DNA from: Sinorhizobium meliloti
GTDB taxonomy: Bacteria > Pseudomonadota > Alphaproteobacteria > Rhizobiales > Rhizobiaceae
Direction: 5' to 3'
DNA length: 32,000 nt
Assembly: GCF_017876815.1 (NCBI RefSeq)
Contig: NZ_JAGIOS010000003.1
Coordinates: forward strand, 300,001 to 332,000
The notes under the pieces are model-generated. The model was not told where the DNA came from and searched no databases. It was given only the letters and a program-made list of their open reading frames with translations. A program made the translations under genes and the position numbers. Positions 10,072-16,457 of this stretch are shown one piece after another (positions within the stretch are counted from its first letter, which is position 1; the number at the start of each line of letters is the position of its first letter).

Positions 10072-11535
10072 TTGGACCCGGTGATATCGACCCGGCCGCT
10101 GCTCGCCGTCGCCGTCGCCGGACTGGCGGCCCTCGCCATTCTCTTTCTCAACAAGCGCGAAAAACTCCGCGACGCGGTATCGCCGATCGCCGCGGTCGCC
10201 ATGTTTGCGATCGTCGTCTCCATGGCGCCGACGGTGCTGGCCGGCGGCACCGTCGAACTGCGGTTGTTCGAGGTCCTGCCAGGGATCGACGTCGCTTTGC
10301 GGGCCGATGCGCTCGGCATGGTATTCGCCACTGTCTCTTCGCTTCTGTGGATCGTGGCCGCGGTCTACTCCATCGGTTATATGCGGCACTTGCACGAGCA
10401 CGCGCAGACCCGCTTTTTCGCCTGCTTCGCCACCAGCCTCGCGGCCGCAGTGGGCGGCGCCTTCGCCGCAAATCTGTTCACGCTGGTTATCTTCTACGAG
10501 GTGCTGAGCCTCGTCACCTATCCGCTCGTCTACCACCACGAGGACGAAGAAGGATGGCGGGGCAGCCGCAAGTATCTCGTCTATCTGATGGGCGCTTCGA
10601 AAAGCGTGCTTCTCGCTGCTTTGGCGCTGACCTATCACATCGCCGGGTCGCTCGACTTCGTGAGGGGCGGGTTGCTGACCGGCGCCAATGCCTCGGCGAC
10701 GCTGCTCACTGTCGTCTATTTCTGCTATCTGTTCGGCTTCGCCAAGGCGGCGGTGATGCCGATGCATGCCTGGCTGCCCGCCGCAATGGTGGCGCCGACG
10801 CCTGTCAGCGCGCTCTTGCATGCCGTGGCGGTCGTCAAAATGGGCGTCTTCTGCGTGCTGCGGGTGATCTTTCATGTTTTTGGCGTCAGCACGGTCGGGG
10901 AACTGGGCCTTGGGGTCGCCACGGCCTATTTGGTCTCATTCACCATCCTGATGGCATCGGTCTACGCGCTGACGCGCGACGACCTGAAGGCGAGGCTTGC
11001 CTATTCGACCGTCAGCCAGCTCTCCTACATCGTGTTGGGCGCGGTACTCCTATCGCCGCTGGCCATGGTCGGCGGGATCATCCACATCGCCGCGCATGCA
11101 TTCTCCAAGATCACGCTCTTTTTCTGCGCGGGGTCGATCTATTGCGCGTCCGGAAAACGCAACATCAGCGACATGGCGGGCATCGGCCGGAGGCTTCCCT
11201 GGACGATGGGGGCATTCTTCGTCGCGTCGCTGAGCATGATCGGCATCCCGCCGACGGCAGGTTTCGTCAGCAAGTGGTATCTGGCGGAGGGCTCGGTAGA
11301 GGCCGGACAGATGGCTTTCCTGGCCGTGCTGCTCGCAAGTTCGGTCCTCAATGCCGCCTATTTTCTGCCGGTCAGCTACACCGCCTTTTTCGAGGCGGAG
11401 ACCAAGGAGAGCCGGGCGCCGGTCCGCGAAATCCCGCTTGTTGCGATCCCGCTGGTCGCGACCGCGATCCTATCAGTGCTGATGGGCATCTTCCCCTACT
11501 ATTTCCTCACCCTCGCGGACGGAGTGATCCGATGA
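10072..11535 (+). CDS. Extra antiporter-like subunit of the NuoL/MrpA-MrpD family (Proton_antipo_M type), with no lateral helix.
   Basis: It is 487 aa and polytopic. The TM5 Glu context is [16 protein letters not shown]. The TM7-8 signature [40 protein letters not shown] is of NuoL/MrpA type. The protein ends right after the pump core, so it lacks the C-terminal amphipathic helix. The TTG start at 10072 sits 7 nt after AAAGGA, and a GTG at 10081 is an alternative. Confidence 0.85.
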   Translation: [487 protein letters not shown]

Positions 11536-11786
11536 TCAAGCCTGTCGTCGATTTCTTTGGTGACGCGCAATATGCGAGGTTGCGCCGGCGGCTGTTCTAT
11601 CTGGTGCTCGTCCTGATCGTCGCCGCCGACTTCCTGGTTCCCCGCGACCACGCCGAATACCTGTGGGAGCGGCTGCCGGGCTGGCCGGCGGCGTACGGCT
11701 TCGGCTCCTGCGTGCTGCTCATCTTCGTTTCCAAGTTTCTCGGTCATCGCGCCGGGCTGATGCGGCGCGAGGACTACTATGATTGA
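11532..11786 (+). CDS. Small (84 aa) predicted two-TM membrane protein of unknown function, embedded in the nuo membrane-arm operon.
   Basis: The sequence is MIKPVVDFFGDAQYARLRRRLFYLVLVLIVAADFLVPRDHAEYLWERLPGWPAAYGFGSCVLLIFVSKFLGHRAGLMRREDYYD. Its ATG overlaps the upstream stop (ATGA at 11532-11535) and its stop overlaps the next gene's start by 8 nt. Third codon positions are strongly G/C-biased. In the track it appears only as the tail of the out-of-frame ORF 10347..11786. Confidence 0.55.
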   Translation: MIKPVVDFFGDAQYARLRRRLFYLVLVLIVAADFLVPRDHAEYLWERLPGWPAAYGFGSCVLLIFVSKFLGHRAGLMRREDYYD

Positions 11787-15021: not shown

Positions 15022-16457
15022 CTGCTGCCGCGCTTCTCCAATGGGCCCTGGCGAGCGTCCCCGAGATCATCGTGGTCACCGGTGCCTGCGTCCTGCTGAT
15101 TGTCGGAGAGCTTGTGCGCAAGGGACGCGACGATCTGCTCCTGTGGGCTTCAGTAGCGATCGTGCTCCTCGCCGCGGTAGCCACGCTCATGCTGGCAGGC
15201 GAGATGCAGCCAGCCTATGCGGGCATGTTCATTTCCGACCGCTTCGCCGTCTTCTTCAAGTTGGTGTTTTATCTGGCGACCATCCTGACCTTCTTCCTGT
15301 CGCGGAAATACGCCGAGATAGAGGGGATCGGCAGGAGCGAATATTATGTCCTGCTGCTCTTTGCCCTTGTGGGAATGATGATCATGGCCTCGGCGATCGA
15401 CCTCCTGTCGATCTATGTGGGTCTCGAGTTGATGGTGCTCTGCACCTATGTGCTGACAGGCTTCCTGCGCAAAGAGCGGCGGTCGAACGAGGCGGCGTTG
15501 AAATATGTGATCCTCGGCGCGGTCTCGACGGCGATTTTCCTTTATGGAGTCTCGCTCATCTACGGGCTCACCGGTACGACCCAGCTGAACCGGATGGCTG
15601 AGGCGGTGAGCGGCGGTCCGCTCGATCCCGCCCTGCTGCTGGCGGTCGTTTTCATCGTTGCGGGGCTCGTCTTCAAGATCGGCGCCGTGCCGTTCCATAT
15701 GTGGGTGCCGGATGTCTATGAAGGCGCGCCGACGACGATCACCGCCTTCATGTCGGTCGCGCCCAAGGCGGCCGGATTCGCGGTGATTCTCCGGGTGTTC
15801 CTCAATCCGCTTGTCGAAGCCTCGAACGCCTGGATCATCGTCGCGGCCATTGCGGTGGCAACGATGGCGCTCGGCAGTTTCGTCGCGCTTGTGCAGGATA
15901 ATTTCAAGCGCCTGCTCGCCTATTCCAGCATCGCCCATGCGGGTTTCGCTATTTTCGGCGTGGTGGCCGGCGGCCAGGACGGGATCGCCAGCGTAATGCT
16001 CTATCTGCTCATCTACACTTTCATGAATCTCGGCATTTTCGGCGCGGTGATCATGATGCGGAACGGCGACTTTTCCGGCGAAGTCATCGAAGACTACGCG
16101 GGTTTCGCCAAGTTCCATCCCGGACTCGCGCTTCTGATGCTCCTTTATCTCTTCTCGCTCGCTGGCATTCCGCCGACGGCCGGGTTCTTCGCCAAGTTCT
16201 ATGTGCTGGTCGCGCTGGTCGAGCGCGGTTTCGTCGCGCTGGCGGTGATCGCAGTCCTGCTCAGCGTCGTCTCCGCCTATTTCTATATCCGCATCGTCAT
16301 GGTGATCTACATGCGTGAGCCGGAAAGGGCGTTCGAACCTGCGTTGACGCCGCTCGTCAGCGCCACGCTCGCCTTCACCGCCGCCGGCACCATCGGCATC
16401 GGCCTGTTTCCGGCGTGGTTCCTGAGGCTTGCTCAACAGTCGGCTTTCGGCGGGTAA
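15018..16457 (+). CDS. nuoN: NADH-quinone oxidoreductase subunit N.
   Basis: It has the NuoN-type signature [36 protein letters not shown]. Its start overlaps the nuoM stop (ATGA). Confidence 0.92.
   Translation: [479 protein letters not shown]

What the first reader, a model, noticed from the sequence alone, without database searches (positions are those of the whole stretch)
10072..16457. The complex I membrane arm encodes four Mrp-type antiporter-like subunits instead of three
Canonical complex I has three pump subunits (NuoL, M, N). Here four consecutive, tightly coupled ORFs of 487, 586, 491 and 479 aa each carry the TM5 Glu context and the TM7-8 Lys/His signature of the Proton_antipo_M family:
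- 10072 ORF: [27 protein letters not shown]
- 11779 ORF: NAWLTDAYPEATVTGAVFMSAFTTKTAVY
- NuoM: [30 protein letters not shown]
- NuoN: [27 protein letters not shown]

The extra gene sits between nuoK and the lateral-helix-bearing subunit. The helix-less extra subunit has the NuoL/MrpA-type motif ([13 protein letters not shown]), while the helix-bearing subunit has a more MrpD-like core. This suggests the distal module came from an Mrp-like source rather than from a simple nuoM duplication.

A fourth pump would predict a fifth translocated ion per NADH, or better-driven reverse electron flow. As I recall, modified cassettes with a fourth pump subunit were catalogued bioinformatically (Chadwick et al. 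2018, ISME J). To my knowledge none has been purified or measured. Whether this cassette belongs to one of those lineages is unknown from the sequence alone.
Basis: partly seen in the sequence, partly recalled or inferred. Interest (0 to 1): 0.78.

Follow-up and report, generated by a model that had tools for sequence, protein, structure and literature searches.

The report
Rhizobial "green" complex I, four pump-like subunits
This is the second, plasmid-borne NADH dehydrogenase of Sinorhizobium meliloti, already described as "green complex I", in which the usual outermost pump subunit NuoL is replaced by a three-gene block shared with Mrp salt/proton antiporters; the gene content is real but not new, and no proton count was found in the papers searched.

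Summary
Window 10072-16457 carries four tightly coupled genes with the PF00361 antiporter-like domain, plus a real 84-aa gene between the first two. The window is S. meliloti pSymA (100% identity).

The cassette is not new. It is the rhizobial "green complex I" of Degli Esposti & Martinez-Romero 2016. Yu et al. 2022 list it as a four-pump complex I in which two MrpD-like subunits replace NuoL, separate from the Nitrospira 2M type of Chadwick 2018.

My tests support the Mrp origin. Neither X487 nor Y586 reaches the NuoL or NuoM family cut-offs. Both match their own NCBIfam families and form their own clades.

The trio X-S84-Y occurred in 14 nuo operons and 53 Mrp operons among 80 genome loci.

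Two corrections:
- Y586, the lateral-helix subunit, has a conserved Asn in place of the TM7 lysine, so "four full pumps" is not shown.
- Its lateral helix is about 25 residues longer than in most Mrp-operon relatives, but a few three-pump Mrp operons are just as long.

Stoichiometry and the fifth proton remain inference.

The parts
9265..9765 (+). nuoJ2, first gene of the + strand nuo2 operon
   Evidence: Pfam PF00499, E 2.7e-39. The start at 9265 follows the PGAP annotation.
9765..10067 (+). nuoK2
   Evidence: Pfam PF00420, E 1.6e-28. Annotated as nuoK.
10072..11535 (+). X487: antiporter-like subunit with no lateral helix, MrpA/NuoL-like channel residues (called 'MrpD-like' in the literature)
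   Evidence: - PF00361 (5.6e-51) plus PF00662.
- NCBIfam NF006236, 854.7 bits against a 663-bit cut-off; below the NuoL and NuoM cut-offs.
- Best solved relatives are MbhH, MrpD and NuoL.
- E143, K225, H250, K256, K346 and K401 are conserved.
11532..11786 (+). S84: conserved two-TM small membrane protein ending in EDYYD; no known family
   Evidence: - No match in Pfam, NCBIfam or the PDB.
- 275 close homologues.
- Found between X and Y in both nuo and Mrp operons.
- Its start and stop codons overlap the neighbouring genes.
11779..13539 (+). Y586: antiporter-like subunit carrying TM15, the lateral helix and TM16; has Asn195 in place of the TM7 Lys
   Evidence: - PF00361 (5.5e-40).
- NCBIfam NF009310, 793.3 bits against a 564-bit cut-off, covering the whole profile.
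- NuoL-type VDGxVNG...LQTG motif at the C-terminus.
- AlphaFold model: TM15 at 450-469, lateral helix at 485-529 and 537-557, TM16 at 562-585.
- Best structural matches are MrpA chains.
- N195 is invariant in 60 of 60 family members.
13546..15021 (+). nuoM2, canonical NuoM with a TM12 Glu (E392)
   Evidence: TIGR01972, 640.5 bits against a 263.8-bit cut-off. Falls in the NuoM clade. Key residues.
15018..16457 (+). nuoN2, canonical NuoN
   Evidence: TIGR01770, 530.2 bits against a 332.6-bit cut-off. Falls in the NuoN clade.
16673..23690 (+). nuoA2-B2-C2-D2-E2-F2-G2, the rest of the same-strand cluster
   Evidence: PGAP annotation of the identical region. Pfam matches for A, C, D, E, F and G.
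24261..25883 (-). nuoI2 and nuoH2 on the opposite strand, completing the 14 core subunits
   Evidence: Pfam 4Fe-4S dicluster domains and PF00146 NADHdh (2.3e-121). nuoI is annotated.

Best explanation
**Identity.** The region is the membrane-arm part of the pSymA-borne second NADH:quinone oxidoreductase of Sinorhizobium meliloti. This enzyme is the published 'green complex I'.

**Architecture.** The canonical distal subunit NuoL is absent. Its place is taken by a three-gene module, X487-S84-Y586, that is shared with a class of three-pump Mrp cation/proton antiporters.
- Y586 supplies the lateral helix and its TM16 anchor.
- X487 supplies a complete NuoL/MrpA-type proton channel.
- S84 is a small two-TM accessory protein of the module.

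**Likely order and function (inferred, not shown).** The most likely order in the membrane is NuoN-NuoM-X487-Y586, with Y586 outermost and its lateral helix running back over X487 and NuoM towards NuoN. The complex would then hold four antiporter-like subunits plus the E-channel. It could move up to five ions per NADH, or be driven more easily in reverse.

**What is shown and what is not.**
- Shown: gene content, family membership, residue conservation, conserved gene order across phyla, and the shared module.
- Not shown: assembly, subunit order, ion species and ion stoichiometry.
For: - **Identity.** The window is 100% identical to S. meliloti pSymA-type megaplasmids. The PGAP annotation gives the same gene set. 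[quoted passage not shown] It is reported in about 70 Alphaproteobacteria and as upregulated in symbiosis (PMC7415380). The two pSymA 'NuoL' proteins were already noted to match Mrp subunits best (PMC3382624).
- **Family membership.** X487 matches NF006236 and Y586 matches NF009310 above their cut-offs. Neither reaches TIGR01974 or TIGR01972.
- **Tree.** In a neighbour-joining tree, X and Y form their own clades, separate from NuoL, NuoM, NuoN and MrpD.
- **Shared module.** Among 80 loci from representative genomes, X(-S)-Y lies in nuo operons in 14 loci, spanning Rhizobiaceae, Inquilinaceae, Acidobacteriota, Desulfobacterota, Marinimicrobia, Opitutales and Caldimicrobium. It lies in Mrp operons in 53 loci.
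- **Functional residues.** X487 has the full residue set.
- **Lateral helix.** Y586 has a NuoL-type helix end and TM16. Its model matches MrpA and NuoL chains. The distance from the DW[FL]Y anchor to the C-terminus is 101-104 aa in 11 of 11 nuo-context Y proteins. It is 69-86 aa in 24 of 31 Mrp-context Y proteins and 72 aa in E. coli NuoL.
- **Coupling and adjacency.** Start and stop codons overlap along the operon. Natural X-Y and MrpD-X fusion proteins exist.
Against: - Nothing in the papers I could search reports biochemical or structural data on this enzyme. Assembly of X487 into the complex is inferred from gene order only.
- Y586 has Asn at the TM7 lysine position, invariant in nuo-context relatives. 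The equivalent lysines MrpA-K223 and MrpD-K219 are described as extremely important for antiport (PMC5703873). Y586 may therefore not be a canonical pump.
- The lateral-helix length argument is not clean. Five Mrp operons have equally long Y tails of 99-106 aa, and the one checked in full, L013, has only three pumps. These are among the closest relatives of the nuo-context proteins in the tree.
- The total TM15-to-TM16 linker of Y586 is only about 10 aa longer than that of E. coli NuoL.
- The lateral helix in the AlphaFold model has low confidence (pLDDT 39-58).
- The tree is neighbour-joining without bootstrap support.
Confidence: 0.8

Rival explanations
1. Four antiporter-like folds but only three working pumps. 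Y586 would act mainly as a scaffold that carries the lateral helix, with an altered or silent channel. X487 would take over the pumping role of NuoL. The enzyme would then stay at about 4 ions per NADH.
For: - Asn195 replaces the TM7 Lys in Y586 and in all 60 aligned nuo-context relatives.
- X487 carries the complete NuoL/MrpA residue set, including the TM8 His.
- The TM7 lysines of MrpA and MrpD are reported as critical for antiport (PMC5703873).
Against: - Y586 keeps E122, K226, H296, H300, K304 and K359, all invariant or nearly so. This points to a conserved charged axis rather than decay.
- About half of the Mrp-context Y proteins have Lys at this position. Lys and Asn may therefore both be workable.
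Confidence: 0.3
2. X487 (with S84) is a stray piece of an Mrp antiporter that happens to sit in the operon. It is not a subunit of the complex I.
For: - PGAP names it 'monovalent cation/H+ antiporter subunit D family'.
- Most relatives sampled lie in Mrp operons: 53 of 80 loci.
Against: - No MrpB, MrpE, MrpF or MrpG gene is present in the window.
- The K-X-S-Y-M-N order is kept in nuo operons of at least six distant lineages.
- Stop and start codons overlap on both sides.
- The protein is 87-98% identical across Rhizobium, Sinorhizobium, Ensifer and Phyllobacterium.
- No nuoL is present, so the operon has no other partner for the X-Y pair.
Confidence: 0.05
3. The order is NuoN-NuoM-Y586-X487. 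Y586 would sit in the NuoL position with a lateral helix of ordinary reach, and X487 would be bolted on beyond it, held by S84.
For: - The total TM15-to-TM16 linker of Y586 (about 91 aa) is close to that of E. coli NuoL (80 aa).
- Long Y tails also occur in three-pump Mrp operons.
- S84 has no assigned role and could be such a clamp.
Against: - In all solved relatives the helix-bearing subunit is the outermost one (established knowledge of the complex I and Mrp structures that match).
- In the Mrp operons the Y tail is as long as that of NuoL, which spans two neighbours. This fits the order MrpD-X-Y and not MrpD-Y-X.
- Fusions join MrpD to X and X to Y.
Confidence: 0.15

Closest known systems
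Rhizobial 'green complex I' (Degli Esposti & Martinez-Romero 2016, FEMS Microbiol Ecol 92:fiw084; as cited in PMC9040806 and PMC7415380)
   Same: - Same organism group and same replicon type.
- A second nuo operon with rearranged gene order.
- Two Mrp-like antiporter subunits in place of NuoL.
- Counted in the literature as a four-pump complex I.
   Different: Nothing found; this is that system. I could not read the 2016 paper itself. I therefore cannot say whether it mentions the 84-aa gene, the Asn at the TM7 Lys position, or the shared module in Mrp operons.
Nitrospira-type 2M complex I (Chadwick et al. 2018, ISME J 12:2668; as cited in PMC9040806 and PMC7419157)
   Same: Four antiporter-like subunits in one complex I cassette. 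An extra pumped ion or easier reverse electron flow has been proposed for it.
   Different: In the 2M type the extra subunit is a second NuoM, and a true NuoL carries a 26-aa lateral-helix insertion. Here there is no NuoL and no second NuoM.
Complex_I_3 of 'Ca. Manganitrophaceae' (Yu et al. 2022, PMC9040806)
   Same: [quoted passage not shown]
   Different: It has five pumps, including two NuoM. Its helix-bearing MrpD2 carries a further 26-aa lateral-helix insertion that the rhizobial protein lacks.
Mrp (CPA3) antiporters with irregular gene order and several MrpD-type genes ('Group 3' in PMC5703873)
   Same: The X-S84-Y trio, in the same order and with similar lengths, follows mrpE-F-G-B-C-D in 53 sampled loci, for example L038 and L013.
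   Different: Those operons have no redox module. The window has no mrpB, mrpE, mrpF or mrpG. Most Mrp-context Y proteins have a lateral-helix tail about 25 aa shorter.
Canonical NuoL / ND5 / Nqo12
   Same: Y586 shares TM15, the lateral helix, TM16 and the VDGxVNG...LQTG motif. X487 shares the E/K/H/K/K channel residues at nearly the same positions as E. coli NuoL.
   Different: These features are split over two proteins. Both score far below the TIGR01974 cut-off.

Membership tests
Green complex I (rhizobial second complex I) | Two Mrp-type antiporter-like genes in place of a single nuoL inside a nuo operon | tested here: met
   X487 and Y586 lie between nuoK and nuoM, and no protein reaches the NuoL cut-off.
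Green complex I (rhizobial second complex I) | Rearranged gene order compared with the standard nuoA-N operon | tested here: met
   The order is J K X S Y M N A B C D E F G on the + strand, with I and H on the - strand.
Green complex I (rhizobial second complex I) | Occurs in Rhizobium/Sinorhizobium as a second complex I beside the standard 14-gene operon | tested here: inconclusive
   The host and replicon are confirmed as S. meliloti pSymA. The chromosomal operon lies outside the window and is known only from PMC3382624.
Green complex I (rhizobial second complex I) | Upregulated in symbiosis | not testable with these tools
   This is a literature statement only (PMC7415380). No FixK-type box was found in the window.
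2M complex I (Chadwick 2018) | A second nuoM gene | tested here: not met
   X487 scores 169.6 bits and Y586 123.1 bits against the 263.8-bit cut-off of TIGR01972. Both lie outside the NuoM clade.
2M complex I (Chadwick 2018) | A true NuoL with a ~26-aa lateral-helix insertion | tested here: not met
   No protein reaches the TIGR01974 cut-off. The helix-bearing protein belongs to NF009310.
NuoL (TIGR01974) | Score above the curated cut-off of 407.5 bits | tested here: not met
   X487 scores 192.6 bits and Y586 135.7 bits.
NCBIfam NF006236 / NF009310 (putative Mrp subunit D families) | Score above the curated cut-off over the full profile length | tested here: met
   X487 scores 854.7 bits against 663, covering profile positions 1-492 of 493. 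Y586 scores 793.3 bits against 564, covering 3-583 of 584.
Mrp (CPA3) antiporter operon | Presence of mrpB, mrpE, mrpF and mrpG with mrpC and mrpD | tested here: not met
   None of these is among the window's genes. They are present next to X-S-Y relatives elsewhere.
Functional antiporter-like subunit (complex I / Mrp) | TM5 Glu, TM7 Lys, TM8 Lys/His, TM11 Lys and TM12 Lys/Glu | tested here: met
   This applies to X487, NuoM2 and NuoN2. For Y586 the TM7 Lys is not met, because the residue is Asn195.

The most novel reading that the evidence does not exclude
X-S84-Y may be a self-contained distal pump cassette that has moved between Mrp antiporters and complex I. On this reading, its small 84-aa subunit and the conserved Lys-to-Asn change in the helix-bearing subunit mark a so-far undescribed variant of the antiporter-like mechanism. 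The lateral-helix length would step up by about 25 residues per added pump: Mrp with three pumps, green complex I with four, Manganitrophus Complex_I_3 with five. I found no mention of S84, of the Asn, or of the Mrp-operon twin of the module in the papers I could read. I could not read the two key papers.
Probability: 0.3. Interest if true: 0.5.

Novelty: already known. Interest (0 to 1): 0.3.

Why it matters
- **Bioenergetics.** Complex I variants with extra pumps test how long-range coupling scales with the number of antiporter-like subunits. They also bear on how bacteria tune the ion/electron ratio, for instance for reverse electron flow or for the energy budget of nitrogen-fixing bacteroids.
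- **A tractable host.** S. meliloti is genetically tractable, which would make this a practical enzyme to purify.
- **Novelty.** The gene content was described in 2016, so there is no discovery here.
- The replacement module has a twin in Mrp operons. It includes a conserved 84-aa protein. Its helix-bearing subunit lacks the TM7 lysine.

Tried and rejected
**Hypotheses considered and rejected**
- A frameshift linking the 10072 ORF to the overlapping 10347-11786 ORF. The long alternative-frame ORF is a high-GC artefact, and only its last 84 codons form a gene.
- X487 as a degenerate remnant. All channel residues are conserved.
- X487 as a nuoM duplicate.

**Searches that led nowhere**
- The Chadwick 2018 and Degli Esposti 2016 papers are not held in the library. 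What I say about them comes from papers that cite them.
- Degli Esposti 2015 (PMC4758237) does not describe the green complex I.
- A phrase search for 'four antiporter-like subunits' returned mostly unrelated beta-2-microglobulin hits.
- No experimental papers on the pSymA nuo genes turned up.
- S84 has no match in Pfam, NCBIfam or the PDB.
- A FixK-box search found nothing.

**Method limits**
- I tried to build an alignment to model the natural X-S84 fusion P0002. MAFFT misplaced the short S84 sequences. The tool would also not report contacts, so I did not use the second structure job.
- Lateral-helix length as a clean count of pumps is only partly usable, because some three-pump Mrp operons have equally long tails.
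Full report
**What is there**

The window is 100% identical over 7.2 kb to pSymA-type megaplasmids of Sinorhizobium meliloti (RU11/001, SM11). It is 80-99% identical to plasmids of other Sinorhizobium, Ensifer, Rhizobium and Phyllobacterium strains.

On the + strand the genes run as follows:

| Gene | Coordinates |
|---|---|
| nuoJ2 | 9265-9765 |
| nuoK2 | 9765-10067 |
| X487 (487 aa) | 10072-11535 |
| S84 (84 aa) | 11532-11786 |
| Y586 (586 aa) | 11779-13539 |
| nuoM2 | 13546-15021 |
| nuoN2 | 15018-16457 |
| nuoA2 to nuoG2 | 16673-23690 |

On the - strand, nuoI2 and nuoH2 lie at 24261-25883, after a CBS-domain gene. 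All 14 core subunits are therefore present except a canonical NuoL.

X487, Y586, NuoM2 and NuoN2 all match PF00361. The junctions are tight. The X487 stop and the S84 start share ATGA, and the S84 stop overlaps the Y586 start by 8 nt.

**It is already described**

Yu et al. [quoted passage not shown]
- the Nitrospira 2M complex I, with an additional NuoM (Chadwick et al. 2018);

A review (PMC7415380) summarises the 2016 paper. About 70 Alphaproteobacteria, mostly Rhizobiaceae, carry this second operon with its peculiar gene order, and it is reported as upregulated in symbiosis.

A 2012 paper (PMC3382624) had already noted that pSymA encodes two 'NuoL' proteins whose best chromosomal matches are cation/H+ antiporter subunits.

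The cassette belongs to the green complex I lineage, not the 2M lineage. I could not obtain either primary paper.

**Family placement**

By NCBIfam, X487 is a member of NF006236 (854.7 bits; cut-off 663) and Y586 of NF009310 (793.3 bits; cut-off 564; full profile length, so the helix tail is part of the family). Neither reaches the NuoL cut-off (192.6 and 135.7 bits against 407.5) or the NuoM cut-off (169.6 and 123.1 bits against 263.8). NuoM2 and NuoN2 pass theirs easily.

Among solved structures, X487 is closest by sequence to MbhH, MrpD, NuoL and NdhF. Y586 is closest to MrpD, MbhH, an MBS subunit and MrpA.

An AlphaFold model of Y586 (pLDDT 76.8, pTM 0.77) matches MrpA chains best (TM-score 0.72-0.77), then NdhF and NuoL.

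I built a neighbour-joining tree of 94 sequences. It included E. coli NuoL/M/N and HyfB/D/F and proteins from 24 fetched loci. It gives separate clades for NuoN, NuoM, NuoL, the operon-first MrpD, X and Y. It has no bootstrap support and should be read as indicative only.

**The module has a twin in Mrp operons**

A scan of one genome per species returned 80 loci encoding X relatives at 39-87% identity. Mapping the window's proteins onto them gave two contexts:
- **nuo operons, 14 loci.** These have the order ...J K X (S) Y M N. They come from Ensifer, Inquilinaceae, Acidobacteriota, several Desulfobacterota, Marinimicrobia, Opitutales and Caldimicrobium. Many are of the 11-gene A B C D H I J K X S Y M N form.
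- **Mrp operons, 53 loci.** Pfam confirmed the order MrpE-MrpF-MrpG-(MbhD/MbhE/MnhB)-MrpC-MrpD-X-S-Y in L038, and a similar order in L013.
- **Undetermined, 13 loci.** Most are short contigs.

S84 relatives have two TM helices and end in EDYYD. They lie between X and Y in both contexts. They match no known family.

**Channel residues**

The alignment below uses E. coli NuoL numbering as the reference.

| Position | E. coli NuoL | X487 | Y586 |
|---|---|---|---|
| TM5 Glu | E144 | E143 | E122 |
| TM7 Lys | K229 | K225 | N195 |
| TM8 His | H254 | H250 | S221 |
| TM8 Lys position | T260 | K256 | K226 |
| TM11 His | H334, H338 | H338, H342 | H296, H300 |
| TM11 Lys | K342 | K346 | K304 |
| TM12 Lys | K399 | K401 | K359 |

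The X487 residues are invariant or nearly so across 15 relatives at 42-52% identity.

Y586 has Asn195 where the TM7 lysine should be. This Asn is invariant in 60 of 60 nuo-type relatives. Mrp-context relatives split roughly evenly between Lys and Asn. The equivalent lysines of MrpA and MrpD are reported as critical for antiport (PMC5703873).

**Lateral helix and likely order**

Y586 ends with a NuoL-type motif (VDGxVNGxA...LRxLQTG) and TM16. I measured the distance from the conserved DW[FL]Y anchor to the C-terminus:
- nuo-context Y proteins: 101-104 aa in 11 of 11;
- Mrp-context Y proteins: 69-86 aa in 24 of 31;
- E. coli NuoL: 72 aa (measured);
- two other canonical NuoLs: about 75-79 aa (my count from the sequences printed).

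A difference of about 25 residues is roughly one subunit width. It matches the 26-aa step reported for 2M NuoL and for Manganitrophus MrpD2. This fits the order N-M-X-Y, with Y586 outermost. Natural MrpD-X and X-Y fusion proteins fit the same order.

There are caveats:
- Five Mrp operons have tails of 99-106 aa. The one checked in full, L013, has only three pumps. These are close relatives of the nuo-type proteins in the tree.
- The whole TM15-to-TM16 linker is only about 10 aa longer than in E. coli NuoL.
- The modelled helix has low confidence.

**Verdict**

The system is already known, and no stoichiometry measurement turned up in the papers I could search. Assembly, subunit order, ion species and the fifth ion are all inferences.

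Noticed in passing
window 11480-11540; protein P0002: One S. meliloti database record (568 aa, 'Putative NADH-ubiquinone oxidoreductase subunit') fuses X487 to S84. The join is a frameshift just before the X487 stop: ...GIFPYY|VPHPRGRSDP|MIKPVV.... It could be a strain difference or a sequencing error. It hides the 84-aa gene in that annotation.
   Followed up: partly
window 10347-11786 (+): A 479-aa ORF in another frame overlaps almost all of X487. It is a high-GC artefact. Only its last 84 codons (11532-11786) form a real gene.
   Followed up: yes
L049:8513-15500 and L043:8500-15100: Two Mrp-type operons (a Gammaproteobacteria MAG and a Trueperaceae MAG) carry four PF00361-type genes in a row. 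The last protein is 844 or 714 aa, with roughly 290 residues of non-membrane sequence between its last two TM helices. This would be a very long lateral connector.
   Followed up: no
L013, L017, L019, L022, L026 (Y homologues): A subset of Mrp operons has Y tails as long as the complex I version (99-106 aa after the DW anchor), but without the VDGxVNG motif. L013 was checked in full and has only three pump genes. Why these tails are long is unexplained.
   Followed up: partly
L023:9827-12800, L034:281-4200: Haloarchaeal loci (Natrialbaceae, Halorubrum) encode longer X-like proteins (626-713 aa ORFs). These are followed directly by a Y-like gene, with no room for an S84 gene.
   Followed up: no
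window 21129-23690 (+): NuoG2 is the long form, with full molybdopterin-oxidoreductase and molybdopterin-dinucleotide-binding domains. A 2012 paper notes that its best chromosomal match is a formate dehydrogenase alpha subunit rather than NuoG1.
   Followed up: no
window 23777-24217 (-): A CBS-domain protein gene sits between nuoG2 and the oppositely oriented nuoI2-nuoH2 pair. It may be a regulator or nucleotide sensor associated with the cluster.
   Followed up: no
window 270-8970 (-): Upstream of the operon, on the opposite strand, lie several signalling genes: an MCP, a CheR, a LuxR-type response regulator, a 1071-aa multi-PAS GGDEF-EAL protein (4942-8157, not in the plasmid gene table) and a protein-L-isoaspartate methyltransferase. 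No FixK-type box was found anywhere in the window.
   Followed up: partly
L005-L012, L016, L018: In Desulfobacterota, Opitutales and Caldimicrobium the X-S-Y module sits in 11-gene nuoABCDHIJK-XSY-MN operons with no adjacent nuoEFG. The electron donor of these four-pump enzymes is therefore probably not NADH.
   Followed up: no
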